Assembly: GCF_055900595.2 (NCBI RefSeq)
Contig: NZ_CM148325.1
Length of the DNA: 64,000 nt
Reading direction: 5' to 3' (one strand)
The notes beneath the pieces are model-generated. The model saw only the letters and a list, made by a program, of their open reading frames with translations. It was not told the origin of the DNA and did not search any database. The translations under genes were made by a program, and so were the position numbers. Positions 1 to 13,116 of the stretch are shown piece after piece; the stretch's first letter is position 1, and each line of letters begins with the position of its first letter.

Positions 1-870
1 TTTACCAGACATACACGTATTTTCATAAACACTTCTACAAGTGTTTTCATTAAGTATTGCTATACACATTGCTTTGTCTGATACACATCCAGTTTAGTAA
101 ATTTGTTAGTCCTGTTTTTACGATAGCTAAAATCAGTTAACGTCACTACAAAACTTTCTGTCCTGTTTAAGCAGTCAATGTGCTATTCGATTTTACTGAT
201 GTTACATTTAACCTTTTCTTAGTTTTTGTGTTTTTAGTCGTTAACCTGAGACAAGTGTCTTTATGTAAAAATGCAAATCCGGCTGAGATAACCTGGCGTG
301 ATTTACTGTGTGCTTACGATGATTTTGTTAAATGGTTTTATGGATGATTTTGTAACGATGAGATTGATGAGATGATTAACTGGTCCTGGTGTTTTTTCTC
401 AGTGCAAGGTGATTATCTTCATCATAAGGCTCTTTTCAGAAAAGCGTGATGATTGGTTCTGGTGTTTTGATTCAGATGAGGTTTACGTTATCGATGGTTA
501 ATCGTTTTTATGGTGCGTAGTGAAAAGTAACGTTTTCAGTATAAGAAAATCGATTCTGATGTTGGTGGTTTTTGTTCTTGGGGTGGGGTGTCTGTAAACA
601 GGTTTTAAACGCGCTATTCGGCTCTGTGATTGAGTTTTGTGGTTAAGCTGTAGGTTTTGGTATTGTTGTTGATTCACAGCAGCAGAAAGCGTTCTGATTG
701 CGTTTTTGGTGTTTTGTTTGCACGTTCTGTTGATCCGTTTCCCTTCGGGCTTTGTAGTTTTTAAAAACCATTTATGCCGTTGTTGTGTGTTTTACCCTGC
801 GTGTAGGTTTATCTTTTCTTCGTGGGGGATTCATTCTGTTTTAATCAGGAGCCATTGGCGTTGCTCAATG

Positions 871-936
871 GCGGGATGCCGTAAAGTTTTACCGCGGTGA
901 TTAATGATGTGAAGTCAATCCAAATCAACGGAGATC
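871..936 (+). repeat. Conserved leader element copy 1 (core gattaatgatgtgaa...tcaacggagatc) immediately upstream of a Rep-like gene
   Basis: Near-identical ~60-bp element recurs at 6625..6686; both end with ...caacggagatc 7-30 nt before a Rep-like start. Confidence 0.6.
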
Positions 937-943
937 TCTCATC

Positions 944-1675
944 ATGAATCAACCAATACACAATGCTTACTGGTTATCCCGTTTTGACAGCCTTCTCGAC
1001 AGTGCCCTGGTGCAGCACCGTGCCGTCTCGTTAATTCGGGTGGATTTACGTTTTCCTGAGTATATGCCTGCCACTATTATGGATACCGATTTAGATTCAG
1101 CAGTGATTTCTCGTTTTTTCGAATCCCTGAAAGCAAAAATTCAGGCTTACCAGCGGAAAAAACGACGTGCCAACAAGCGTGTGCATGCAACCACTCTGCG
1201 TTATTTCTGGTGTCGGGAGTTTGGCAAGGAAAAAGGCAGGAAACATTATCACGTGATATTACTGCTCAACAAAGATACCTGGTGCTCGCCAGGGGATTTC
1301 ACCGTTCCTTCTTCGCTGGCGACGCTGATCAAGCTGGCATGGTGTAGCGCTCTGCATCTTGAGCCCTGGCAGGGTAATGGACTGGTTCATTTTTCCAGGC
1401 GGGCGCCTTTCCGTAAACCGACATCATCTGATGCTCGCCCTTCTTCCGATGATACGCCTTTGTCGGGTGGATGTTCTGATACCCGGAAAGCTTCTGACAA
1501 AAAATCTGGTGGATCCGCTGTGCTCTGGGTCAAGCGTGGTGATGTGGAAGCGATGCAGAAAGCCATGGAGAGAGCCTGTTATCTCGTGAAGTATGAGACG
1601 AAGCAGCATGACGGTTCTGGTCAACGTAATTATGGTTGCAGTCGTGGGCCGGGGCGTTTACTGGATGGCAGGTGA
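944..1675 (+). CDS. Rep-like protein (YfjJ/YagK 'inovirus Gp2'-type), HUH motif
   Basis: 243-aa ORF; motif KHYHVILLL (His-hydrophobic-His) and downstream Tyr/Lys patch YLVKYETK; N-terminus LIRVDLRFPE shared with paralogs at 6028 and 6841. Confidence 0.55.
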   Translation: MNQPIHNAYWLSRFDSLLDSALVQHRAVSLIRVDLRFPEYMPATIMDTDLDSAVISRFFESLKAKIQAYQRKKRRANKRVHATTLRYFWCREFGKEKGRKHYHVILLLNKDTWCSPGDFTVPSSLATLIKLAWCSALHLEPWQGNGLVHFSRRAPFRKPTSSDARPSSDDTPLSGGCSDTRKASDKKSGGSAVLWVKRGDVEAMQKAMERACYLVKYETKQHDGSGQRNYGCSRGPGRLLDGR

Positions 1676-1739
1676 GCCCTGTAAAACGGCATCCGGTGCC
1701 TGAGCATACGTCACGTAATTAACTGTCTTGACCAACAAA

Positions 1740-2425
<686 letters not shown>

Positions 2426-2442
2426 TATTGCCCATTCTTGCT

Positions 2443-2485
<43 letters not shown>

Positions 2486-2858
2486 TGGCTCAGCGTATGC
2501 GCCATTTGCTTACATATGGGCTTAAACCCTAAGGGGCACCAGGCTGCATACGCTTTGCCAAATCTGTTCGCTGCTCATGATAACGAAGAACCAGGATACA
2601 AGGTGGAAGATCCTCAACGCTCAGGGGCGCAATGTTCCCTGTGTTTCATGCCCCCATCGTTTGTTGCTGTGGTGCCAGACTTCTGAGGCACCTCCATGTC
2701 GTTTTGCTTTTGTCAGCATCATAAATGCGTCGGGACTGGTGAATGGATACAAGTCATTTTATTATCGACGTCAGCGAACATACTCACTATGTCGGTATAT
2801 TTCTGAACTGAACAGTAAGTTTTGCGTTGATTACAGTATGCGAAGGAGGTCCATTACA

Positions 2859-4463
2859 ATGAATCCCGATTATGTGCAATCCTTGCAGACATCCCACCAC
2901 TTCCCAGCTGATTTAACCTACAGATTATTTCCTAGTGAGCTTGCGTATCTCATTGACGACTTATATGAAAGTACCCAACTTCCGTTGGAGCTCATTTTTA
3001 ATACTGTACTGGCAACGCTCTCACTCTCCTGTCAGTCATTGGTTGACGTTGTTCATCCTCACACCAACATGCCGGAACCCTGCTCACTTTATCTGTTGGC
3101 AATCGCAGAGCCAGGCGCGGGAAAAACAACGATAAACAGACTGGTGATGAACCCCTGTTACGAATTTGCCGATCGACTCATTCAACAATACGAAGAGAGA
3201 AACAAAGATTATAAGACTGAACTACAGATCTGGAATACCCGGCAGAAAGCGCTTGCTGCCAATTTAAGAAAGGTTGTTAACCGGGGGTATCCGGGGGAAC
3301 AGGAAGAAGAGGCGCTGCGTAATCACGAAAGAAATAAACCGACACGTCCGGTTCGACCGAATTTTATCTATGAAGATGTTTCGCTTAAAGCGCTTGTGGA
3401 AGGGCTCAATGAACATCCTGAGGCAGGGGTTATTTCTGATGAGGCGGTCACTTTTTTCAGAAGCTATCTGAAAAATTATCCGGGCCTGTTGAATAAAGCA
3501 TGGAGTGGGCAACCGTTTGATTTTGGACGGGCTGACGAGAAATACCATATCGCGCCACGTCTGACATTTTCGTTAATGTCTCAGCCGGATGTCTTTACGA
3601 ATTATATAAATAAAAATGACGTACTGGCGTGGGGAAGCGGATTTCTTTCCCGGTTTCTGTTCAGTCAGGTTGTAAGTTCTTCCTGGATACGTGATTATAC
3701 GAGAGGTGAGTTCAGAACAATATCAACCCTGGAGAACTTTCATAAAAAGATTAACGGATTCCTGTTAAACCACAACATTAATTTCCCCGGCATGAGCACC
3801 GAAAGGAAGACATTAAAACTTGCGAAGAAAGCGTTGGGGGAGTGGCAGGAAAACCAGATTAAGATTGAAAGAAAAGCGCTTGCAGGCGGGGAGTGGGAAC
3901 ACATCAGAGATATTGTTCTGAAAGCAGGCTCTAATATACTGAGGATAGCTGGAATATTCACCTGCTATTGCTATAAAGATGCTGAGGAAATTGAATCAAT
4001 TACGCTTTTTAAAGCTATGCATCTCATGGACTGGTATCTGGAGGAGGCGAGCACAATATTTTATCCCATGTCTGCACGATGCCAGTTTGAACAGGATGCC
4101 TGTGAACTGTATGCATGGATTATGACCCGAATAAGGCAGAATAATTGGCGTGCTATCAGGAAAACAGACATTGAAAGATATGGTCCCAATCGACTGAGAA
4201 GAGCAGAAAAACTTACACCTGTACTCAATCAGTTAATCTGTCAGGGGTATTTATGTATCATCAGAATGCGATCGCATCAGGCACTTTATGTTTCTGTTTA
4301 TTGTAACAATGGTTACCTCCTTCCTTTAGGCGCAATGTATTACGAACAGTTTGATATTGTTCTACCCGAGAATATTCATAAAGCGAAAGCATATCACGTT
4401 AATATTCCACCGGAATTAATTCCGTCATTTGCGTCACCTTTTTCAGAGTATAGCTTATTTTGA
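2859..4463 (+). CDS. P-loop NTPase, YfjI-like (DUF3987-type) satellite/prophage replication-associated protein
   Basis: Walker A AIAEPGAGKTT; ATG at 2859 preceded by GAAGGAGG Shine-Dalgarno; the track ORF from 2577 is an unsupported upstream extension. Confidence 0.5.
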   Translation: MNPDYVQSLQTSHHFPADLTYRLFPSELAYLIDDLYESTQLPLELIFNTVLATLSLSCQSLVDVVHPHTNMPEPCSLYLLAIAEPGAGKTTINRLVMNPCYEFADRLIQQYEERNKDYKTELQIWNTRQKALAANLRKVVNRGYPGEQEEEALRNHERNKPTRPVRPNFIYEDVSLKALVEGLNEHPEAGVISDEAVTFFRSYLKNYPGLLNKAWSGQPFDFGRADEKYHIAPRLTFSLMSQPDVFTNYINKNDVLAWGSGFLSRFLFSQVVSSSWIRDYTRGEFRTISTLENFHKKINGFLLNHNINFPGMSTERKTLKLAKKALGEWQENQIKIERKALAGGEWEHIRDIVLKAGSNILRIAGIFTCYCYKDAEEIESITLFKAMHLMDWYLEEASTIFYPMSARCQFEQDACELYAWIMTRIRQNNWRAIRKTDIERYGPNRLRRAEKLTPVLNQLICQGYLCIIRMRSHQALYVSVYCNNGYLLPLGAMYYEQFDIVLPENIHKAKAYHVNIPPELIPSFASPFSEYSLF

Positions 4464-6027
4464 AATAACCTTACACAGATAAAACAAAATCAACCAACCT
4501 TCATTCGGAGGTTGGTGATAAGGCGTTTTGCATATCCTGCACCTATGCAAATGTTCACCAATTATGGGGGGTGAATGAGAATTTCTCTGAAAAAACCGCT
4601 ACGGTAGCAACAGTAGCAGCACATGCACCACATCTGTGATTTAATTTTGTTTTCATAATGACCTGCTGTCAGAGCTGGTTGAATACAGGAGTGTGCGCAC
4701 TGGTGGAAGCATGGCTTTCGTTTTTTTATTGATCGAAAGTGAATCGAAAGATTATTTTTAACATAGATTAAAGCTAATCATTAACCATATTGTGTGAGTT
4801 TTCATATATAACTTCGTTTGATTTTTGTCGTGATGAGTGCAGGTGTATATGATAATGTTGGTCTCTGCCTGAATAACGAATGGTTATCACTGTTACTGAA
4901 AAGAGATGCTGTTCAAGTTTGCATTTCAATAGGAGAGTGAAGAAAAATGATTTGATATTTTTTTCTGTAAGATAATGGTTTGTCATGTTCGTATTCAGAA
5001 CGGATGATTTCTTATTTTTACTCATCAAACATGGATAATTTTAATTTAGGTTTATTACTATAATTAGTATCTACCCCTTTATTTATCATCCATCTCTGCC
5101 CTTCATTTTCCCTCTCTGTCTTTACACATTCCATTACTCTTATTCTCATCCAGTTATATTCACTCCCTTCCTTGTCTAATCTGCATTGTCACCATTATCA
5201 TGGTATCCACCTTCTCCATTCCTCAATCATAACTACTGTAACTCATATGATACTCAGATAAGTTATTCTCTACTACGCTATTGCTGATATCCATCTGTTC
5301 CTGTTTTCAGTAAAATAATAATTTATTTTAATTTTATCTATCATGAGCTGTATTTGCTTAACAATGATTGTTTATCTGATATGTTTTAACCATTCCGGTA
5401 AATATCAATACTTCTGTCATCACTGATTAACTGAATGTTTACTCTTTGATAAGGTGTCCATGATTTCGTCATGTTTAACAGTGCAGGATAAACAATGAAA
5501 TTAACAGAGTGAATTCCTGATTATGTTTTTTTCGGGTTGTATTGTTTAAGATGCAGGGTAAAAATCATGCCAGTGGTATTTTTTACTCTGGTAATGTGTG
5601 CGGTTAACGTTCATGTCCTTAAGAACAGATTGGATGAGGGCGTATAAGTTTATTGTGTTGGCCTTGTATACGTTTTTTTTAGAACCACTGAGAGCAAGTT
5701 TGTAGTTTATGATGTTATTGGTCGTAATATGTTTCTTGAACTTCTGGTCGTGGGTTTTTATCGCGTGTTTTGCAGTATTTTGTGATGTTTATTGATTCTG
5801 TATTTTATTCGCTCCTCGTTTATCTCATCTCTTTAGCTAATACCATCAGATAATCCATTTATTTCTGCACAACGCTACGTGTCGTTAATAACCGACGTAT
5901 CCATTCTGTTACAGCATGCCTGATAAATACCGTCTGTAAGTTATTACCGTTTTAGATCTGATTATGAGCGAAAGCATTAATTCGTTTACAGCACTTAAAA
6001 CGTCATTAACTTTCAGGAGTCATCAGC

Positions 6028-6594
6028 ATGCCTAAATCTTACACACCAAACTGGTTTTTTACCGCTTTACTTGACAATCACATCAATCAAATGATGGCAC
6101 GCTATTCCTGCCTGCGGGCCTTACGCATGGATTTCTTCTACAGGAAAGATACGCCTGATTTCTTACAACCTGATCATCGCTGGCTTGAATTGCAGTTGCG
6201 TATGCTGCTGGAGCAGGTGGAACAATTTGAAAATATCGTTGGCTTCTTCTGGGTGATTGAATGGACGGCTGATCATGGTTTTCATGCGCATGCGGTTTTC
6301 TGGATCGATCGTCAGAGGGTTAAAAAAATATATCCCTTTGCGGAGCGGATTACGGAATGCTGGCGGTCTATTACGCATAACAGTGGTTCGGCACACCGCT
6401 GTACATATCAGCCGCATTATACATACAACATCAACATTCCTGTGCGCCACAACGATCCTGAAAGCATCGATAATATTCGCGGTGCCCTGCATTATCTGGC
6501 GAAAGAAGAACAAAAAGACGGGCTGTGTGCCTACGGCTGCAATGAAGTTCCTGAACGTCCTGCTGCAGGGCGTCCTCGTAAGCCTCACTTCTGA
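6028..6594 (+). CDS. Rep-like protein paralog, HUH motif
   Basis: 188 aa; motif GFHAHAVFWI and Tyr/Lys patch LHYLAKEEQK; N-terminal LRALRMDFFYRKD parallels ORF 944; SD caggag upstream. Confidence 0.5.
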   Translation: MPKSYTPNWFFTALLDNHINQMMARYSCLRALRMDFFYRKDTPDFLQPDHRWLELQLRMLLEQVEQFENIVGFFWVIEWTADHGFHAHAVFWIDRQRVKKIYPFAERITECWRSITHNSGSAHRCTYQPHYTYNINIPVRHNDPESIDNIRGALHYLAKEEQKDGLCAYGCNEVPERPAAGRPRKPHF

Positions 6595-6624
6595 AGCTTA
6601 AGGCCTGAGCCTCCGCTCCTGGAA

Positions 6625-6686
6625 ACACTCCGTCGGTAAAACCTTACCGCCTTGATTAATGATGTGAACTGAAGTCAACGGAGATC
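6625..6686 (+). repeat. Conserved leader element copy 2
   Basis: ggtaaaaccttaccgccttgattaatgatgtgaactgaagtcaacggagatc vs cgtaaagttttaccgcggtgattaatgatgtgaagtcaa...caacggagatc at 871..936. Confidence 0.6.
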
Positions 6687-6840
6687 ATTCACCCTGAACC
6701 TGCATCCGGTGTTCTGTCCCTTATCTTCCCGTTCTGCTTCAGTTCTTCACTTATTCCATCAATCTCATCCGCAAGCCATAACACGTCAGCTCATTCACGG
6801 GCAGGACGCATTGTGGGCTGCGCATAACGGAACATATCTT

Positions 6841-7416
6841 ATGAATGCTATTCCTTATTTCGACTATAGCCTGGCACCCTTCTGGCCATCTTATCAGAAC
6901 AAAGTCATCGGCGTCCTTGAGCGTGCGCTGCGTGAGCAGTCCGGCTCACGGATACGGCGGATCCTGCTTCGTCTGCCGTGGGAACATGACAACGCCTTCA
7001 ACAGCAGACAGACCTGGTTTGGTATGGATTTTATCGAAACCGTCAGTGCGCTGATGAATGCGAAACCCGGACGCGACCTTTGCTGGCTCCTGACCCGTCA
7101 TCCGGAAAAGCCGGAATACCACGTGGTGCTGTGCGTCAGACAGGAGTATTTCGACGGCCCCGAACTGGACCGGCTGATTCTGGATGCCTGGAGCAACGTA
7201 CTGGGCTTCGCGTCACCGGGGGAAGCGGCACCGTACCAGAAACAGATAACCCGGGATGTGGTGCTGGACAGTCGTTCACCGGACTGCGAAGACATCCTCA
7301 AAGATTTGATCTGGGCGTTCAGTGATTTCGCCCGCGATCGTCGTGGTGTGTGCGATCCGGAAGCCCGTTGCCTCGCCGGTAATCCCGGCTATCCCGGATC
7401 TGCAGGACCGTTCTGA
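6841..7416 (+). CDS. Rep-like protein paralog with degenerate HUH motif
   Basis: Internal Met of track ORF 6709..7416; MNAIPYFDYSL...RRILLRLPWEHDN...PEYHVVLCV aligns with the other two paralogs, but the first His of the motif is replaced by Glu. Confidence 0.45.
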   Translation: MNAIPYFDYSLAPFWPSYQNKVIGVLERALREQSGSRIRRILLRLPWEHDNAFNSRQTWFGMDFIETVSALMNAKPGRDLCWLLTRHPEKPEYHVVLCVRQEYFDGPELDRLILDAWSNVLGFASPGEAAPYQKQITRDVVLDSRSPDCEDILKDLIWAFSDFARDRRGVCDPEARCLAGNPGYPGSAGPF

Positions 7417-7484
7417 GAATACGGCTCAGCACCTTTCCCCGCATTCGCACAACCTTCATAAATCTCACAGAGGATATTCTGACC

Positions 7485-7721
7485 ATGTTGACCTCAATGA
7501 CAGGCCACGACTGCGTGTTGCTGCGTGCCGACGATCCCCTGATCGACATGAACTACATCACCAGTTTCACCGGTATGACAGATAAATGGTTTTACAAGCT
7601 GATCAGTGAAGGCCATTTCCCGAAACCCATCAAGCTGGGCCGCAGCAGCCGCTGGTACAAAAGTGAAGTGGAGCAGTGGATGCAGCAGCGAATTGAGGAA
7701 TCACGAGGAGCAGCAGCATGA
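7485..7721 (+). CDS. AlpA-family phage/island transcriptional regulator (HTH); true start may be the internal Met near 7550
   Basis: C-terminal FTGMTDKWFYKLISEGHFPKPIKLGRSSRWYKSEVEQWM matches the AlpA/Vis-type HTH pattern. Confidence 0.6.
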   Translation: MLTSMTGHDCVLLRADDPLIDMNYITSFTGMTDKWFYKLISEGHFPKPIKLGRSSRWYKSEVEQWMQQRIEESRGAAA

Positions 7722-7876
7722 AACGTGTTGCAATGTCGGCGCTGGTATTGCGGAAATCAGCCCTGTCCCTGGTGCTGGCGACATTACCGTTCATCTTCCT
7801 GCTGACCCTCTCCGGTCAGCCAGCAGATTGTAGCTCTTTCCTGACTGATTCGTCATTCCATTCACATTGTTTATAA
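7718..7876 (+). CDS. Small hydrophobic protein (52 aa), start overlaps the AlpA-family stop
   Basis: ATG at 7718 overlaps the TGA of the upstream gene (ATGA); MKRVAMSALVLRKSALSLVLATLPFIFLLTLSG... predicts one TM helix; below the 60-aa track cutoff. Confidence 0.3.
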   Translation: MKRVAMSALVLRKSALSLVLATLPFIFLLTLSGQPADCSSFLTDSSFHSHCL

Positions 7877-7912
7877 CTGGCATTACACCGGTGTTGATGC
7901 GCACCTTCCCGT

Positions 7913-8512
7913 GTGTCTGCACCGGCTGAACAAAATTCAACAGGGTTTGAAAAGGAACATTTCGTGCAAATAACCGAAGCATTAATTTCAGAGCCGGGAG
8001 ACATCCGGCGTTTTATTCAGCAGGCGGTGGACCACTGGCCGCATTTGCTGGCATTTTACTTCACACTCCATTCGGCAGAAGGAAATATCAACGGGCAACA
8101 GATTCATGCATTCTGTACTTCCTTTTACCGACAGGTGCACGAACGTATTACTGAGCGTAATCACACGGCCAGTCCATCATCGCCGGTGGTGTTACGCTGG
8201 TTGCGGGAACAACATGGAGGAGCAACAATTCGATGCCTGTTGCTGCTCAGCCAGACGAGTATTTGTCACCCGCGAGCCAGTGTCACAGTTGATGAACAAT
8301 GTTCGCAAATGGTGGATTTATTGCAACAGACATGGCGGGTGATAAGTGCTGACGGACAATGCCGGGTGGAAAGGTGTTTTCAGGCTGCCCGGGGTGATAC
8401 ATCCGGCCAGTATATTGCGTTAAAAACAGTTGCATTGTCTCTGGGGTTACCGGTTGTGACCGGTATTACCCATCGCCCGGTACAGCGCTGTACATTGATT
8501 ACAGCTCAGTGA
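7913..8512 (+). CDS. Hypothetical protein
   Basis: 199-aa ORF with no recognisable motif. Confidence 0.25.
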   Translation: MSAPAEQNSTGFEKEHFVQITEALISEPGDIRRFIQQAVDHWPHLLAFYFTLHSAEGNINGQQIHAFCTSFYRQVHERITERNHTASPSSPVVLRWLREQHGGATIRCLLLLSQTSICHPRASVTVDEQCSQMVDLLQQTWRVISADGQCRVERCFQAARGDTSGQYIALKTVALSLGLPVVTGITHRPVQRCTLITAQ

Positions 8513-9523
8513 ACAGCGCTGTTGTGCAGTCAACGAGGTTTTCTGTCTTTTCGTCGGTCATTCAGCATCATTAAACGGGTCTCTGCCTCTTTCTGTTCCT
8601 GTGGTGTCACTTCCCCGCACGGCTGACCGTTCAGGTTGTAACGGGCGCCACCTGCTATTAACGCACGGTAATAGCGCGGAGACTGCACATAAGACGCCAC
8701 TGCTGCATGTAATGTACCAGCGCCAAACGCCAGTTCTCGGATGGCGATATCCTGTATCAGGTCGTCAGGTATCCCCACTTTAAGTGGTTTTGTTTTTTTC
8801 CCGGTTGAATGACTCAGGCCAGAGTTCCACAAGACGAATAATGCGCTTACGGTTTTTGCTCTGGCGTTTTGTCATGTCGCCACGGTGTTTTATCAGCAGG
8901 TTTCTGTTTATCGTTCAACTGTGGTATCTGGTCACCGGCCTTCATTTTGTATGCTGTGTCCGTTTTATTCTGCAGCGGCGTTGCCGGTGATTTACTGAAA
9001 ATACCCTGCGGTTTACGGTTAATGGTCAGAGTTACCATCAATTTTGTTACCTCGCGCTGTCAATGGAAGTAGTACCTCATCCGATATCTGAAAATGTTTT
9101 CCGGTGGATGTTACAGCGAATTTCATGTAAGACATGTTGTTGTCGGTATTGTTCAGTACTGTGCGTTGTGAGCGTATTCGTTATCAGACAGAGGGGCAGG
9201 GAACAAACGTCAGAGGTTAAGGATATCCGGGAACAAATGGCGTAAACGGACATCTCAGTGCCTGAGAAACAGTACAGGTCAGGCCATCATGGCCTGCAAA
9301 CAGAGCCCTGGCGACCCCGTGGCCGAAAACGAAACAATAACCCGCGCGCAGTGCGAGGAATCCGGATGTGAAGCAATCAGCAGGTAATATTAATGGCAGG
9401 ACCAGCAGGTTCTTTAAACAAACGAACATGCTGTAATTGATATTTTGCTTATTGTATTTTCTTTTTAGTTATTAAATTAATTTATTTACGAAAAATTTTC
9501 TGCAGATACAGGATGGGAATTCA

Positions 9524-9552
9524 GGGTGTCATCACGCCTTATGATGACACCC
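9524..9552. terminator. Perfect 11-bp inverted repeat hairpin (gggtgtcatca-N7-tgatgacaccc) downstream of the LacI-family gene
   Basis: Read directly; no flanking T-run on either strand, so it may be a protein-binding palindrome rather than a terminator. Confidence 0.3.
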
Positions 9553-9633
9553 TTCCCCTGGTTGTGGAAAACCGAAGGATATATCAGGTTCAGCAACAAA
9601 ATCAGTGAGCTGAAAGATACCAGTCCCCCAGCT

Positions 9634-10653
9634 TCAGCAGCTTTCACGTAAACATAAACAGGGCTCAATGAATATCTGATTGCTCCAGTTACCTTCTTTA
9701 ATTCGTTCCAGCAAAACATTTCCTGCTTCCAGACCAATTTTCCTGTGAGGAACGGCCATTGTTGTTAATGATGGTTGGCAAACTTTGCTGACGTCACTGT
9801 CACCAAATCCTACTACGGCGAGCTCGTCTGGAACTTTGATCCGTCTTCGTTGACATTCATAGAGAACACCGCAGGCTAACTCATCTGACACACATACCAG
9901 GGCATCCAGTTCCGGCCATGCGAGCAAAAATTCCGGTAGTTGTGATGCTCCGGTGGAAAAAACAGGTGGCAGAGCAGCGTTAATAACACGGTTGGGAGAC
10001 ATATGATGGCGTAACATAGCTTTATACCATCCCTGTAAATGCTGCTGAAAGATCCACTGTTCCTGGTTAGCGCATAGCAAACCGATATTCTGATAACCAC
10101 GTTGTACCAGCATATCCGTCAGCTCGAACATTGCTGCAACATTATCAATACCAATGTTGATATCTATCGGATCAGTACGAATGGCACCGATTTCTATAAC
10201 AGGAATCGAGGCATTTTTGAGCAAGTGACGCACGGTACTATTATGCTCAACACTAAGCAAAATTGCTGCAGCGATATTAGAAGCCAGCAGGGTTTCCAGC
10301 AGTTTTTCTTCTTGTTCCAGACGATGGCGTGACTCAGCCAGGATTATTTGATACCCCGCTGGTTGTAGCACATGTTGCAGCCCGGCAAACATTTCCGTGC
10401 ATCCCGCTTCAGCCAGGTTTGGCACGACCATTGCGATCGTGTGTGAAGATGCCGATGCCAGTGCGCTTGCAGTGAGGTTGGGCATATACCCTAATTCATT
10501 AACTGCGGCTTCAATCTTCTCCCTCAATTTATCTGAAACTTGTTCGGGAGTGCGTAACGCTCTGGATACAGTCATTGTGCCAACTCCCGCGAGTTGCGCG
10601 ACATCAGCAATAGTGACTTTACCTGTACTACGACGTTTTCGGGTTATTGCCAT
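9634..10653 (-). CDS. LacI-family transcriptional regulator
   Basis: N-terminal HTH VTIADVAQLAGVGTMTVSRAL plus periplasmic-binding-protein-like sugar-binding fold; divergent from the PTS operon. Confidence 0.85.
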   Translation of the reverse strand: MAITRKRRSTGKVTIADVAQLAGVGTMTVSRALRTPEQVSDKLREKIEAAVNELGYMPNLTASALASASSHTIAMVVPNLAEAGCTEMFAGLQHVLQPAGYQIILAESRHRLEQEEKLLETLLASNIAAAILLSVEHNSTVRHLLKNASIPVIEIGAIRTDPIDINIGIDNVAAMFELTDMLVQRGYQNIGLLCANQEQWIFQQHLQGWYKAMLRHHMSPNRVINAALPPVFSTGASQLPEFLLAWPELDALVCVSDELACGVLYECQRRRIKVPDELAVVGFGDSDVSKVCQPSLTTMAVPHRKIGLEAGNVLLERIKEGNWSNQIFIEPCLCLRESC

Positions 10654-10785
10654 ACAAAATCCTGCTCAGCGACTACATATGGAGATCTTTTATTACTTAT
10701 CATCAACGGCTTCCTGCACTGCCAGTAGCAGAGTATACCTCTTAATATCTGCCATAAGTCTGGATTTAATCAGTGAAATCTATTT

Positions 10786-10799
10786 TGATAGCGCTATCA
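10786..10799. promoter_or_regulatory. Candidate LacI-family operator 1 (perfect 14-bp palindrome TGATAGCGCTATCA)
   Basis: Perfect palindrome in the divergent intergenic region between the LacI-family gene and the PTS operon. Confidence 0.55.
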
Positions 10800-10819
10800 C
10801 AAATTCGAACAATACCTCC

Positions 10820-10833
10820 TGATAGCGCTATCT
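10820..10833. promoter_or_regulatory. Candidate LacI-family operator 2 (TGATAGCGCTATCt, 13/14 palindromic)
   Basis: Second copy of GATAGCGCTATC 34 bp downstream of the first. Confidence 0.5.
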
Positions 10834-10904
10834 TTGTGATATTGATCGCAGATATACCGTCGTTACTTGAATACATTCTGGTCATATAAATAAGAAATTA
10901 GGGG

Positions 10905-11354
10905 GTGGGAGTGCTTAATATCTGGCTTTCTGATTCAACAATCGCATTACGAAAGAATGCCGCAACCTGGCAGCAGGCATTAGATATCTGTGCCAGACCG
11001 TTACTGGATGCAGAGATAATTACGACGGATTATCTCAGTGCGATAAAGACACAACATGAAAAACTGGGGCCTTATTATGTCCTGGCACCCGGGCTGGCCA
11101 TGCCGCATGCCCGACCAGAAGAAGGGGCAAAAGGATTAGGTTTATCATTATTAAAACTTGAAGAAGGTGTCAGTTTTCATACAGAGGAATTTGATCCTGT
11201 AGATGTTATCATTTTACTTGCCGCACCAGACAAACACAGTCATATCGAAATGATATCTGCACTGGCTGAGTTATTCTCCAGCGAAAAAGATTTACATGAA
11301 TTGCATCAGGCTCGCAATGTGGAGGAAATAAAAAAGATAATTTCACGGTTCTGA
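10905..11354 (+). CDS. PTS EIIA component (ascorbate/mannitol-type EIIA-2 family)
   Basis: 149 aa with the EIIA-2 pattern around LAMPHARPEEG; GTG start per ORF track. Confidence 0.75.
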   Translation: MGVLNIWLSDSTIALRKNAATWQQALDICARPLLDAEIITTDYLSAIKTQHEKLGPYYVLAPGLAMPHARPEEGAKGLGLSLLKLEEGVSFHTEEFDPVDVIILLAAPDKHSHIEMISALAELFSSEKDLHELHQARNVEEIKKIISRF

Positions 11355-11432
11355 TTACATTATAAATTCAGTCTTTTCACAACATTGCGCCGTTGCGTGA
11401 TGGGACTTCTTCAACTTAAAATGGTGAATATA

Positions 11433-11705
11433 ATGAAAATTATGGCTATTTGTGGCTCAGGGCTTGGTAGTAGTTTTATGGTCGAAATGAATATTAAAAA
11501 AGTTCTGAAAAAAATGGATATAGAGGCGGAAGTGGAACATTCCGATCTCTCATCAGCAACGCCAGGGGCTGCCGATTTATTTGTGATGGCCAAAGATATT
11601 GCTGCCAGTGCCAGCGTACCGGAAAGTCAGTTGGTGGTTATCAACAACATCATTGATATTAATGAACTCGAAACGCAACTGCGTAACTGGTTAGCAAAAC
11701 AATAA
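11433..11705 (+). CDS. PTS EIIB component (ascorbate-type)
   Basis: MKIMAICGSGLGSS phosphocysteine loop; internal Met chosen over the track ORF start at 11385. Confidence 0.75.
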   Translation: MKIMAICGSGLGSSFMVEMNIKKVLKKMDIEAEVEHSDLSSATPGAADLFVMAKDIAASASVPESQLVVINNIIDINELETQLRNWLAKQ

Positions 11706-11727
11706 CCTTAATTGAAGCGAGGTGGAT

Positions 11728-13116
11728 ATGTTTATCCTTGAAACGCTGAATTTTGTTGTTGATATACTTAAAGTGCCCGCGATACTGGTCGGCTTGATTG
11801 CCTTAATTGGTCTGGTTGCCCAGAAAAAATCTTTTTCAGATGTTGTTAAAGGTACAATTAAAACTATTCTCGGCTTTATTGTACTGGGCGGTGGTGCCAC
11901 TGTTTTGGTTGGTTCGTTAAATCCTCTTGGGAGTATGTTTGAACATGCCTTTAATATTCAGGGCATCATTCCGAATAATGAGGCTATTGTTTCTATTGCG
12001 CTGGAAAAATATGGCGCATCGACGGCCCTTATTATGGCATTTGGTATGGTGGCGAATATTATTGTTGCCCGCTTTACCCGCCTTAAATATATCTTCCTGA
12101 CCGGACACCACACATTTTACATGGCCTGCATGATTGGTGTGATTCTGACAGTGGCTGGTTTTGAAGGTATATCACTGGTCTTTACCGGTTCTCTTATTCT
12201 GGGACTTGTGATGGCATTTTTCCCGGCATTAGCACAACGCTATATGAAGCGTATTACGGGGAATGATGACATTGCTTTTGGTCACTTTGGCACTCTGGGA
12301 TATGTACTTTCTGGCTGGATTGGCAGCGTGTGCGGTAAAGGTTCCCGCTCCACCGAAGAGATGAATTTGCCCAAAAATCTGAGCTTCCTGCGCGACAGTT
12401 CCATCTCTATTTCTCTTACGATGATGGTGATTTATCTGATCATGGCGATCAGTGCTGGTCGTGAGTTCGTTGAAAGCCAGTTCAGTGGTGGTCAAAACTA
12501 CCTTGTCTACGCCATCATAATGGCCATCACCTTCGCTGCTGGTGTATTTATTATTCTGCAAGGCGTGCGTTTAATCCTTGCTGAAATAGTTCCGGCATTT
12601 ACCGGGTTTTCAGAAAAGCTGGTGCCGAATGCCCGTCCGGCCCTCGATTGCCCGGTTGTGTATCCGTATGCGCCAAACGCAGTGTTAGTTGGTTTCTTGT
12701 TTAGCTTTTTTGGCGGTCTGGTAGGGCTATTTTTGTTGGGACAGATGAAACTGGTGTTGATTCTTCCGGGTGTCGTTCCTCACTTTTTTACCGGGGCGGC
12801 TGCTGGCGTATTTGGTAACGCTACGGGGGGACGTCGTGGCGCAATGATTGGTGCTTTTGCGAATGGCTTATTGATTACCTTCCTGCCAGTACTGTTATTG
12901 CCGGTTCTTGGGGCGATAGGCTTTGCTAATACGACCTTTTCCGATGCAGATTTTGGTGCTGTCGGCATCGTCCTCGGAAACCTGGCACGTTATCTCTCAC
13001 CTTTTGCCATCACCGGACTTGTAGTAGCGCTATTTGTGCTGCTGGTTGCCTGGAACATTTTCGCCAGTAACAAAATCGCTGCCAAAGCGCAGAAGAAGAG
13101 TGGAGCCAAATCATGA
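11728..13116 (+). CDS. PTS EIIC permease (UlaA/SgaT ascorbate family)
   Basis: About 460-aa polytopic membrane protein; ATG at 11728 after GAGGTGG Shine-Dalgarno. Confidence 0.8.
   Translation: MFILETLNFVVDILKVPAILVGLIALIGLVAQKKSFSDVVKGTIKTILGFIVLGGGATVLVGSLNPLGSMFEHAFNIQGIIPNNEAIVSIALEKYGASTALIMAFGMVANIIVARFTRLKYIFLTGHHTFYMACMIGVILTVAGFEGISLVFTGSLILGLVMAFFPALAQRYMKRITGNDDIAFGHFGTLGYVLSGWIGSVCGKGSRSTEEMNLPKNLSFLRDSSISISLTMMVIYLIMAISAGREFVESQFSGGQNYLVYAIIMAITFAAGVFIILQGVRLILAEIVPAFTGFSEKLVPNARPALDCPVVYPYAPNAVLVGFLFSFFGGLVGLFLLGQMKLVLILPGVVPHFFTGAAAGVFGNATGGRRGAMIGAFANGLLITFLPVLLLPVLGAIGFANTTFSDADFGAVGIVLGNLARYLSPFAITGLVVALFVLLVAWNIFASNKIAAKAQKKSGAKS

What the first reader, a model, noticed from the sequence alone, without database searches (positions are those of the whole stretch)
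4464..6027. 1.5-kb ORF-poor interval with a G-depleted polypyrimidine tract
No credible ORF exists between the YfjI-like gene and the next Rep-like gene. Within it, about 5070..5250 is almost devoid of G on the top strand (ctacccctttatttatcatccatctctgcccttcattttccctctctgtctttacacattccattactcttattctcatcc...), while 5540..5830 switches to a G+T-rich, C-poor composition. Such long single-strand biases are unusual for enterobacterial intergenic DNA and may mark a structured non-coding RNA, an H-NS-silenced leader, or a single-strand origin for a rolling-circle replicon.
Basis: seen in the sequence. Interest (0 to 1): 0.5.

Follow-up and report, generated by a model that had tools for sequence, protein, structure and literature searches.

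The report
Noncoding leader of HUH nuclease operon
This 1.5-kb gene-free stretch of an E. coli genomic island is the untranslated, AT-rich upstream region of a phage-type (HUH) DNA-nicking gene: most of it drifts neutrally, but a conserved 26-base AT-rich core followed by a G-starved C/T-rich tract looks like a control site, probably a promoter plus a loading pad for the terminator protein Rho, not a structured RNA.

Summary
Window 5067-5250 has 11 G in 184 nt. Its best 78-nt window has C29/G2, the most extreme C/G skew in the 64 kb. Window 5540-5830 is G+T-rich and C-poor, but less extreme.

The interval has no conserved ORF, no codon periodicity, no Rfam match and no conserved RNA or ssDNA structure.

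About 1 kb (5013-6027) recurs in roughly 1,570 of 5,426 complete E. coli genomes. It lies directly upstream of a 188-aa YagK/YfjJ ('inovirus Gp2') gene in every locus fetched. That gene keeps the HUH and YxxK motifs and a Rep-like fold.

Anatomy:
- A conserved AT-rich core (5041-5066, containing TATAAT), shared with Citrobacter, Enterobacter, Salmonella and Mixta relatives.
- A G-depleted tract whose length (74-213 nt) and sequence vary while its composition is kept.
- About 670 nt that evolve neutrally and are partly deletable.
- A nearly invariant proximal 130 nt.

Best reading (about 0.4): a promoter-like core followed by a rut-like Rho-loading leader that keeps the nuclease operon silent or insulated. 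Main rival (about 0.25): an origin-like cis site for the HUH protein. Neither is experimentally tested. The element is undescribed but belongs to a known kind.

The parts
2577..4463 (+). YfjI-family (DUF3987, SF3/P4-alpha-like helicase) gene. The annotated start corresponds to window 2859.
   Evidence: phrog_2373 DNA helicase at 3.7e-42. RefSeq annotation 'YfjI family protein'. Present upstream of the motif at a constant 565-580 nt (638 nt for 50%-identical homologues) in 17 of 68 E. coli-type loci.
4464..5012 (+). yfjI-linked spacer. It contains a terminator-like hairpin at 4493-4516, a small hairpin at 4595-4614, and TTTCG/CGAAAG arms at about 4717-4751.
   Evidence: About 85% identical in diverged islands that keep yfjI. 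Replaced by unrelated cargo (dsdA, sugar kinase, IS256) in other islands. Terminator-like sites are listed.
5013..5066 (+). Left boundary of the conserved module, with the AT-rich core motif TTAATTTAGGTTTATTACTATAATTA (5041-5066). The motif holds a TATAAT hexamer at 5059-5064.
   Evidence: Unique in the window; chance expectation is 0. At most 1 substitution in 11 E. coli-type loci retrieved without using the motif, and 2-4 substitutions in 6 loci from other genera whose Gp2 protein is only about 50% identical. Different upstream contexts join 25-30 nt before it.
5067..5250 (+). G-depleted, C/T-rich, length-polymorphic tract (rut-like). Conservation resumes at about 5226.
   Evidence: C59/G11 over 184 nt. 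Best 78-nt window C29/G2, with regularly spaced C. Length 74-213 nt in 44 variants; pooled composition is G 4%, C 29%, T 45%. Built from degenerate ~25/50-nt units around TTCACTC. RNA MFE is -6.2 kcal/mol, no better than shuffles. The distant short class also has a C-rich tract here, with C 36-42 and G 14-18 per 100 nt.
5251..5898 (+). AT-rich, neutrally evolving untranslated stretch. It includes the G+T-rich, C-poor part at 5540-5830.
   Evidence: About 50% of columns are polymorphic, against 43% of third codon positions in the adjacent CDS. No 3-nt periodicity. No conserved small ORF and no conserved structure. In L014, 5532-5898 has no counterpart; L041, L051 and L052 have the same short leader.
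5899..6027 (+). Nearly invariant proximal block. It contains an imperfect inverted repeat (5934-5954 / 5996-6016) and the Shine-Dalgarno AGGAG at 6016-6020.
   Evidence: 10-18% polymorphic columns and major-allele frequency 0.98-0.99. Inverted repeat I3. Its last ~45 nt (CAGCACTTAAAAC...) are homologous to the short-class 5' UTR.
6028..6594 (+). 188-aa YagK/YfjJ ('inovirus-type Gp2') HUH endonuclease gene, first gene of a Gp2 - hypothetical - AlpA-like HTH module.

Best explanation
The interval is the untranslated, AT-rich upstream region of a HUH-nuclease (Gp2-like) - hypothetical - AlpA-like operon that belongs to the backbone of P4-type E. coli genomic islands.

Proposed mechanism:
1. The conserved AT-rich core (5013-5066, with TATAAT at 5059-5064) is a promoter/operator-type entry point.
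2. Any + strand RNA that starts there, or reads in from yfjI or upstream cargo, immediately exposes 75-210 nt of C-rich RNA with almost no G. This RNA is unstructured and cannot be translated.
3. That RNA is a textbook Rho-utilisation (rut) substrate. Rho loads on it and terminates within the following ~700 nt of ribosome-free, AT-rich (presumably H-NS-coated) leader.
4. The nuclease operon therefore stays silent and is insulated from neighbouring transcription unless termination is relieved.

Shown here: the anatomy, the conservation pattern, the absence of coding or structured-RNA signal, and the rut-like composition.
Inferred, not shown: promoter activity, transcription direction, Rho action, and H-NS binding.
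For: - The module (core + tract + leader) sits directly upstream of the Gp2-type gene in every locus fetched, while upstream neighbours vary.
- Conservation begins about 55-60 nt before the predicted start site and includes a TATAAT/TATTAT hexamer in all variants.
- The G-poor tract begins right at the predicted +1 in both the E. coli class and the distant short class, although the tract sequences cannot be aligned between them.
- The tract meets the published rut criteria (PMC6407284): a 78-nt window with C/G above 1 (here 14.5), regularly spaced C, G depletion and no structure. In that paper only 37 of about 4,500 validated K-12 predictions had C/G of 3 or more.
- Tract length (74-213 nt) and sequence vary freely but composition is held, which fits a compositional signal such as rut.
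- A tract with so few G offers almost no ATG/GTG/TTG start and no Shine-Dalgarno sequence; no conserved small ORF exists.
- The rest of the leader is neutral and partly deletable, as expected for a termination zone or spacer.
- The neutral part is G+T-rich on the + strand, the known mutational signature of a non-template strand (my own knowledge). Replication bias cannot explain it, because copies lie on both strands all around the chromosome.
- In the short class a hairpin downstream of the tract varies mostly through U-G pairs, which are allowed only in + strand RNA (weak evidence).
- No sigma-70-like promoter is predicted in the conserved proximal block.
- Background from the literature: Rho/NusG cooperate with H-NS to keep transcription out of AT-rich horizontally acquired DNA (PMC6797219).
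Against: - There are no transcript, transcription-start-site, Rho or H-NS data for this locus.
- The core lacks a recognisable -35 or extended -10 element, and the promoter scan did not call it.
- 26 or more conserved bases across genera is more than a promoter needs.
- A polymorphism test did not show clear selection against G in the tract: A->G occurs at 32% of A columns, T->C at 44% of T columns. The composition could therefore be inherited from duplication of a G-poor unit.
- RhoTermPredict-type criteria have many false positives: 43% of 78-nt windows in this window have C/G above 1.
- The other Gp2 paralogue's upstream region shows only a mild C>G segment.
Confidence: 0.4

Rival explanations
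1. The core and tract are the DNA-level cis site of the HUH protein: a double-strand-origin-like or nick/bind element, possibly also an autoregulatory operator. This would resemble the f1/M13 (+) origin that lies just upstream of gene II. The HUH protein would nick in the meltable AT-rich core. The TTCACTC-type repeats would be binding sites, and YfjI (an SF3-like helicase) would be the partner helicase.
For: - The adjacent gene encodes a HUH nuclease with intact catalytic residues and a Rep-like fold.
- The core is far more conserved than its surroundings and across genera.
- In the short class the core is flanked by GGGGAGTG/CACTCCC inverted repeats that fold as ssDNA (z = -2.5).
- TTCACTC repeats are enriched in many tract variants.
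- The ancestral layout is Gp2 - YfjI helicase - interval - Gp2.
- The best local alignment to the M13 origin falls exactly on the nick region, TTAATAG(T)G(G/C)ACTC.
Against: - The M13 similarity is not significant (p = 0.23).
- The inverted repeat is absent in the E. coli class, and no hairpin forms there.
- One-sided changes in the short-class repeat arms are not compensated.
- CACTC copy number ranges from 0 to 4, with one copy in this window, among variants whose Gp2 proteins are mostly 94-100% identical. That is hard to reconcile with specific iterons.
- Repeat spacing of 25/46-50 nt is not helically phased.
- G depletion also covers the spacers between repeats.
- No second copy of the motif exists in 64 kb.
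Confidence: 0.25
2. Only the proximal ~130 nt and the general AT-richness (H-NS silencing) matter. The tract would be a decaying array of duplicated G-poor units with no function of its own, and the 800 extra bases of the E. coli class would be junk acquired by insertion or duplication.
For: - The leader is less conserved than third codon positions of the gene.
- The tract is full of indels and copy-number changes, including a 9-nt CCACCTTCT repeat in several copies.
- 5532-5898 has no counterpart in L014, and three other loci have the same short leader.
- There is no clear selection signal against G.
Against: - The core motif is under strong constraint in loci sampled independently of it.
- G depletion directly after the core is retained in a class that diverged to about 50% protein identity and has an unalignable tract.
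- The tract's C>G bias runs opposite to the G>C drift of the neutral remainder.
Confidence: 0.2
3. The interval encodes a structured non-coding RNA or sRNA.
For: Long ORF-free conserved DNA. Terminator-like hairpins lie in 4493-4722. Whole-leader RNA fold z = -1.58.
Against: - No Rfam match even at E<=1.
- A sliding RNAalifold scan on 50 variants gives z from -2.3 to +0.9 on both strands.
- The tract RNA is unfolded.
- Most of the region evolves neutrally, with indels.
Confidence: 0.05
4. The interval hides a decayed or unrecognised protein-coding gene, for example small hydrophobic peptides at 5558 and 5709 (+) or a minus-strand frame open over 5549-5788.
For: - 27- and 28-aa hydrophobic ORFs lie in the G+T-rich part.
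- A minus-strand stop-free frame runs 80 codons here and 84-97 codons in L115/L102.
Against: - The ORFs are intact in only 5-17 of 50 variants.
- Only 1 of 50 variants has a minus-strand ORF above 65 aa.
- No codon periodicity: p = 0.39 for 5549-5788, against 0.001 for the real CDS.
- No NCBIfam or PHROG match.
Confidence: 0.04

Closest known systems
Rho-dependent attenuators and rut sites in long untranslated leaders (for example the Salmonella mgtA/corA leaders and the E. coli rho, tna and rpoS leaders; named from my own knowledge), as defined compositionally in RhoTermPredict (PMC6407284) and Nadiras et al. (PMC6144790)
   Same: A C-rich, G-poor, unstructured, ribosome-free RNA segment of 78 nt or more at the start of a long leader, followed by several hundred untranslated nucleotides before the first gene.
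   Different: No sensor, sRNA or antiterminator partner has been identified. C/G of 14.5 is far more extreme than typical rut sites. The tract is length-polymorphic and made of degenerate repeats. Nothing has been tested experimentally.
Filamentous-phage f1/M13 (+)-strand origin upstream of gene II (gpII, an HUH initiator)
   Same: A cis element immediately upstream of a gpII-like HUH gene, on the sense strand. An AT-rich core is flanked (in the short class only) by GGAGT.../...ACTCC-type inverted repeats, followed by a G-poor and then an AT-rich segment.
   Different: Sequence similarity is not significant (p = 0.23). The loop would be 35 nt rather than 11 nt. The inverted repeat is missing in the E. 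coli class. The protein is 188 aa rather than 410 aa. No phage genes accompany it, and the leader has no match among 50,697 phage records.
H-NS-silenced AT-rich regulatory regions of horizontally acquired islands, shielded by Rho/NusG (Bossi et al. 2019, PMC6797219)
   Same: 25-40% GC, an island location, a position at the border between variable cargo and a conserved module, and a Rho-type signal at the entry.
   Different: H-NS binding was not measured. In that study, H-NS-elicited termination was largely independent of strong rut sites, whereas here a very strong rut-like tract is present.
Phage P4 ori/crr iterons bound by the alpha primase-helicase (TGTTCACC; recalled from memory, not checked)
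   Same: Directly repeated TTCAC-containing units next to a gene for a P4-alpha-like helicase (YfjI).
   Different: No detectable homology to any phage record. Repeat number is 0-4 and degenerate. The module is more often found without yfjI within 5 kb (51 of 68 loci).

Membership tests
Rho-dependent terminator / rut site (RhoTermPredict definition, PMC6407284) | A 78-nt window with C/G above 1 | tested here: met
   C29/G2 = 14.5 at 5074-5151. This is the only + strand region in 64 kb with C/G above 5.
Rho-dependent terminator / rut site (RhoTermPredict definition, PMC6407284) | Regularly spaced cytosines (every 11-13 nt, six in a row) | tested here: met
   The regex C.{11,13}C repeated five times matches the best window.
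Rho-dependent terminator / rut site (RhoTermPredict definition, PMC6407284) | Unstructured and ribosome-free nascent RNA | tested here: met
   MFE is -6.2 kcal/mol for 184 nt, equal to shuffles. No conserved small ORF overlaps the tract. The tract has almost no G, so it offers almost no start codon and no Shine-Dalgarno sequence.
Rho-dependent terminator / rut site (RhoTermPredict definition, PMC6407284) | RNA polymerase pause site or hairpin within about 150 nt downstream | tested here: inconclusive
   No conserved hairpin follows the tract in the E. coli class. In the short class a GC-rich hairpin follows the tract, with 87-89% of pairs kept and weak covariation.
Rho-dependent terminator / rut site (RhoTermPredict definition, PMC6407284) | The tract is transcribed in the + direction, and termination is sensitive to bicyclomycin or rho mutation | not testable with these tools
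   No expression data were available. The element is absent from K-12 and from the 50-kb portion of Sakai SpLE1 that was examined.
Structured non-coding RNA (Rfam family or novel) | Match to a covariance model | tested here: not met
   No hit in 4464-6027 at E<=1.
Structured non-coding RNA (Rfam family or novel) | Conserved secondary structure beyond the shuffled-alignment expectation | tested here: not met
   Fifteen 120-nt windows on both strands give z from -2.3 to +0.9.
Rolling-circle double-strand origin of an HUH replicon | Adjacent initiator with an HUH motif and a catalytic Tyr | tested here: met
   H86, H88, Y156 and K159 are invariant. Rep-like fold.
Rolling-circle double-strand origin of an HUH replicon | Conserved nick-site hairpin or inverted repeat | tested here: not met
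   No hairpin in the window: DNA MFE -1.3 kcal/mol, z = +0.7. A hairpin is present in L012 but not L010, and it shows no compensatory changes.
Rolling-circle double-strand origin of an HUH replicon | Initiator-binding direct repeats next to the nick site | tested here: inconclusive
   TTCACTC occurs in two or more copies in 18 of 40 tracts, against a null maximum of 10. The variants are related, however; the window has one copy, and copy number varies 0-4 with a nearly constant protein.
Rolling-circle double-strand origin of an HUH replicon | Sequence similarity to a characterised inovirus origin | tested here: not met
   Best local alignment to the M13 origin scores 17, p = 0.23.
Single-strand origin (sso) of a rolling-circle replicon | Extensive, strand-specific ssDNA secondary structure | tested here: not met
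   ssDNA folding of 5040-6027 gives z = -1.7 (+) and -1.9 (-). The tract itself cannot fold.
Protein-coding gene or pseudogene | Reading frame kept across relatives and excess variation at the third codon position | tested here: not met
   The positive control (Gp2 CDS) gives p = 0.001.
H-NS-bound silenced region | AT-rich DNA well below the genome's GC content | tested here: met
   GC is 25-41% across 4700-6000, against 48% for the whole window.
H-NS-bound silenced region | H-NS occupancy (ChIP) and derepression in an hns mutant | not testable with these tools
   No data.
RfaH-dependent operon leader | ops element GGCGGTAGnnTG on the non-template strand | tested here: not met
   The best match in the interval is GGTGGAAGCATG at 4702, with 2 mismatches, one of them at the T of GGTAG (T6), which I recall as important for RfaH recognition. 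Chance gives about 42 such matches per 64 kb.

The most novel reading that the evidence does not exclude
The conserved core plus repeat tract may be the cis-acting origin/nick site of a split Rep. The small HUH nuclease (Gp2-type) would work with the neighbouring SF3-like helicase YfjI. If so, the supposedly non-replicative P4-type pathogenicity-island backbones, found in about 29% of complete E. coli genomes, could carry a rolling-circle replication or mobilisation module that fires after excision. The G-starved displaced strand would serve as an unstructured loading platform.
Probability: 0.2. Interest if true: 0.7.

Novelty: new member of a known kind. Interest (0 to 1): 0.35.

Why it matters
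About 1 kb of unannotated, gene-free DNA travels with a HUH-nuclease operon in the backbone of genomic and pathogenicity islands in roughly 29% of complete E. coli genomes. A miniature version occurs in Citrobacter, Enterobacter, Salmonella diarizonae and Mixta.

The function of YagK/YfjJ-family genes is unknown, and so is how these islands keep their mobility genes silent. A defined cis element makes both questions testable with simple reporter, bicyclomycin and nicking assays. Here that element is a conserved core plus an exceptionally strong rut-like tract.

If the Rho reading is right, it is a clean natural example of a portable transcriptional insulator at a module boundary. If the origin reading is right, it changes how these islands are thought to propagate.

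Tried and rejected
- **Rfam scan** of 1-12000 at E<=1: nothing in the interval.
- **Tandem Repeats Finder**: no array.
- **Phage collection**, distant blastn: no match. The motif is also absent from IMG/VR.
- **Plasmid hits** are island fragments carried on IncI/conjugative plasmids, some truncated by ISEc8.
- **Small hydrophobic ORFs** at 5558 and 5709, and the 5343 ORF: frames are broken or highly variable.
- **Minus-strand open frame** at 5549-5788: no periodicity, no family match, and intact in 1 of 50 variants.
- **Structured RNA**: sliding RNAalifold with column shuffles found nothing.
- **Long-range pairing** of the C/U tract with the G/U-rich part appears in the MFE fold but is not significant (z = -1.58), and in L014 the segment 5532-5898, which holds the G/U-rich part, has no counterpart.
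- **Nick-site hairpin** in the E. coli class: absent.
- **M13 origin similarity**: not significant.
- **RfaH ops element**: absent.
- **P. aeruginosa AlpA-type antitermination** as an analogue: that AlpA is a much larger protein (residues numbered up to at least 142 in PMC9371919) than the 77-aa HTH protein here, so the idea was dropped.
- **Esr41 sRNA** of EHEC SpLE1 as a possible identity: the 50-kb portion of Sakai SpLE1 around iha that was examined lacks the leader and the Gp2 gene.
- **K-12 CP4-57**: the gap is only 150 bp, with no motif.
- **Literature searches** for YfjJ/YagK, YfjI/DUF3987/inovirus Gp2 and the motif string found no characterisation.
- **Selection-against-G polymorphism test**: inconclusive.
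- **Caveat on sampling**: metagenome loci L017-L136 were retrieved with the motif itself. They cannot be used to measure motif conservation, so the independently retrieved loci were used for that.
Full report
**1. Observation**

The interval 4464-6027 lies between a YfjI-family gene (2577/2859-4463) and a 188-aa 'inovirus-type Gp2' gene (6028-6594). No ORF of 40 aa or more exists in 5150-6027 on either strand.

The tract 5067-5250 has A39 C59 G11 T75. P is 4e-6 given the interval's own G frequency, and GC skew drops to -0.76. It is the most extreme C/G-skewed segment of the whole 64-kb window at 80, 100 and 160 nt. The best 78-nt window, 5074-5151, has C29/G2, and no other + strand position has C/G above 5.

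The second region, 5540-5830, has A60 C37 G67 T127. It is genuinely G+T-rich and C-poor, but less exceptional.

'G-depleted C/T-rich' describes the first tract better than 'polypyrimidine'.

**2. Distribution**

The full interval is 100% identical in several E. coli chromosomes, and nothing is annotated in it. Parts of it match in 1,572 of 5,426 complete genomes. The copies lie on both strands, at many chromosomal positions, and number up to five per genome.

In most of the genomes sampled down the ranking, only about 5012/5040-6025 is shared, at 80-90% identity.

In the E. coli loci whose annotation I retrieved, this ~1-kb block sits directly upstream of the Gp2-type gene, which is followed by a ~190-aa hypothetical gene and a 77-aa AlpA-family HTH gene. 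What lies upstream differs: YfjI here, a sugar kinase, dsdA, or IS256, IS21 and IS481 remnants elsewhere.

YfjI precedes the block in 17 of 68 loci, at a constant 565-580 nt. For YfjI homologues only 50% identical the distance is 638 nt. Gp2(243 aa) - YfjI - interval - Gp2(188 aa) is therefore probably the ancestral backbone, later interrupted by cargo.

K-12 CP4-57 has only a 150-bp yfjI-yfjJ gap and lacks the element. No phage record matches. Plasmid copies are island fragments.

**3. A conserved core shared with other genera**

A protein-guided search of species-representative genomes found Gp2 relatives of about 50% identity in Citrobacter, Enterobacter, Salmonella diarizonae and Mixta. 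Their upstream DNA cannot be aligned to the window except for one element. That element is TTAATTTAGGTT(A/T)ATTA(A/C)TAT(A/T)ATTA, at window 5041-5066.

A metagenome scan with this motif returned 120 loci. Wherever enough downstream sequence was held, all but a few had a Gp2-like gene downstream. The loci fall into two classes:
- **Long class** (E. coli type): motif to ATG is 640-1057 nt.
- **Short class**: motif to ATG is 145-154 nt.

The last ~45 nt before the start codon (CAGCACT(T)AAA...) are also homologous between classes. The E. coli class therefore equals the short class plus about 800 extra nucleotides.

Those metagenome loci were selected by the motif, so I measured motif conservation only on loci retrieved independently. 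It shows at most 1 substitution in 11 E. coli-type loci and 2-4 substitutions in 6 short-class loci. Different upstream contexts converge 25-30 nt before the motif. The motif is unique in the window.

**4. The tract**

Directly after the core, all 44 distinct long-class variants have a tract of 74-213 nt, with a pooled composition of G 4%, C 29% and T 45%. In the fully listed variants, G is 2-9% in the first 100 nt.

The tract is a mosaic of degenerate ~25/50-nt units, each containing TTCACTC. CACTC occurs 0-4 times per tract, and once in this window. Some variants add a 9-nt CCACCTTCT repeat in several copies. TRF finds no regular array.

The short class, with an unalignable sequence, is also C-rich after the core: C 36-42 and G 14-18 per 100 nt, with very few G in the first ~60 nt by my reading.

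As RNA the tract does not fold: -6.2 kcal/mol for 184 nt, the same as shuffles.

**5. The remainder of the leader**

Across 50 distinct variants the polymorphic fraction of columns is as follows:

| Region | Polymorphic columns |
|---|---|
| 5226-5898 (leader) | ~50% |
| Gp2 CDS, codon positions 1 / 2 / 3 | 28% / 23% / 43% |
| 5899-6027 (proximal block) | 10-18% |

There is no 3-nt periodicity in any 90-nt window (p above 0.15), against p = 0.001 for the CDS.

In L014, 5532-5898 has no counterpart, and L041, L051 and L052 have the same short leader.

The two hydrophobic mini-ORFs that could explain the G+T richness are intact in only 17 and 5 of 50 variants. A minus-strand open frame over 5549-5788 has no periodicity and no family match, and it forms a real ORF in just one variant.

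A sliding RNAalifold scan gives z between -2.3 and +0.9 on both strands. Rfam finds nothing. ssDNA folding z-scores are -1.7 and -1.9.

So most of the interval is neither coding nor a structured RNA nor an sso-like structure, and it evolves about neutrally. The proximal block (5899-6027) is nearly invariant. It contains an imperfect inverted repeat (5934-5954 / 5996-6016) ending at the Shine-Dalgarno sequence.

**6. The downstream gene**

**7. Mechanism**

I favour, at about 0.4, a promoter/operator-like core followed by a Rho-loading leader. The arguments are:
- The conserved block starts about 55-60 nt before a start site predicted from the invariant TATAAT/TATTAT hexamer.
- The G-poor tract starts at that point in both classes.
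- The tract satisfies every compositional criterion for a rut site and is far more extreme than typical ones (PMC6407284).
- Its sequence and length are free while its composition is held.
- It has so few G that it offers almost no start codon and no ribosome-binding site.
- It is followed by hundreds of neutral, untranslated, AT-rich nucleotides.
- The neutral part carries the G>C, T>A bias expected of a non-template strand. Replication bias cannot explain that, given the many orientations of the copies.

Rho/NusG-assisted protection of H-NS-silenced AT-rich islands is established (PMC6797219).

Promoter activity, transcription direction, Rho action and H-NS binding are all inferred, not shown. 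Weak points:
- There is no -35 element, and the promoter scan makes no call at the core.
- The core is more conserved than a promoter requires.
- The test for selection against G was inconclusive.

**8. Main rival (about 0.25): an origin-like cis site for the HUH protein**

M13 shows the same layout, with the (+) origin just upstream of gene II. The short-class core is flanked by GGGGAGTG/CACTCCC arms.

My best local alignment to M13 lands on the nick region, but it is not significant (p = 0.23). The arms are missing in E. coli, and changes in them are not compensated. Repeat copy number varies 0-4 under a nearly constant protein.

**9. Other rivals**

A 'no function beyond AT-richness' reading (about 0.2) explains the drift. 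It does not explain the constrained core or the cross-genus retention of G depletion.

Structured RNA, hidden genes, an sso and an RfaH ops element are rejected or very unlikely.

**10. Novelty**

No paper in the searchable library characterises YagK/YfjJ genes, this leader or the motif. The element is undescribed, but under every surviving reading it belongs to a known kind: a Rho/H-NS-controlled leader or an HUH cis site. Interest is moderate.

Noticed in passing
window 1-943 (and L001 3883-5480): The other Gp2 paralogue (243 aa, 944-1675) also has a long ORF-poor, AT-rich upstream region (about 1.6 kb in L001). It is mildly C>G at first, then strongly G+T-rich and C-poor on the sense strand (skew -0.58 to -0.68 at 298-600). 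It shares no sequence homology with the 5067-6027 leader. Long G+T-rich untranslated upstream regions may be a family trait of YagK/YfjJ genes.
   Followed up: partly
L012 3905-3935 and the equivalent position in 27 short-class loci (alignment A4, columns 65-88 and 102-121): Two small GC-rich hairpins lie between the C-rich tract and the ribosome-binding site of the short-class Gp2 gene. 87-94% of pairs are kept. There are a few UA->CG compensations, and many one-sided changes give U-G pairs, which are allowed only in + strand RNA. Statistical support is weak.
   Followed up: partly
L003 about 8150-8200; also L049, L059, L086, L134: A 9-nt unit, CCACCTTCT, is tandemly repeated inside the tract. 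There are three copies in W60 and more in some metagenome variants, read as PPS/HLL repeats in translation. This looks like slippage-type copy-number variation.
   Followed up: no
window 4493-4516 and 4717-4751: Just after the yfjI stop there is a hairpin (CCAACCTTC...GGAGGTTGG) kept with wobble or compensating changes in diverged islands. Further on, TTTCG / CGAAAG arms are invariant while the 12-13-nt loop between them differs completely, and a second CGAAAG follows. These could be terminators or a protein site.
   Followed up: partly
window 5934-5954 / 5996-6016: A 21-nt imperfect inverted repeat (81% complementary, 41-nt spacer) ends exactly at the Shine-Dalgarno sequence, inside the ~99% conserved proximal block. 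W60 has a 12-nt deletion that overlaps the end of the left arm and the adjacent loop. It could be a translational or operator element. Covariation cannot be assessed because the block does not vary.
   Followed up: no
window 53739-53838: This is the second most extreme skew in the window: C2/G19 in 80 nt on the + strand, so C-rich and G-poor on the minus strand. It is unrelated to the finding and was not examined.
   Followed up: no
L141 1-96 (E. coli strain 2D): An island-encoded 'H-NS histone family protein' gene lies about 1.3 kb upstream of the module's core motif in this strain, with IS256 and IS21 fragments in between.
   Followed up: no
window 6709-7416: The second gene of the module is annotated as a ~187-190-aa hypothetical protein. 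The longest ORF here, with a GTG start, is 235 aa. It has no NCBIfam or PHROG match. Whether it is another diverged YagK-like domain was not tested.
   Followed up: no
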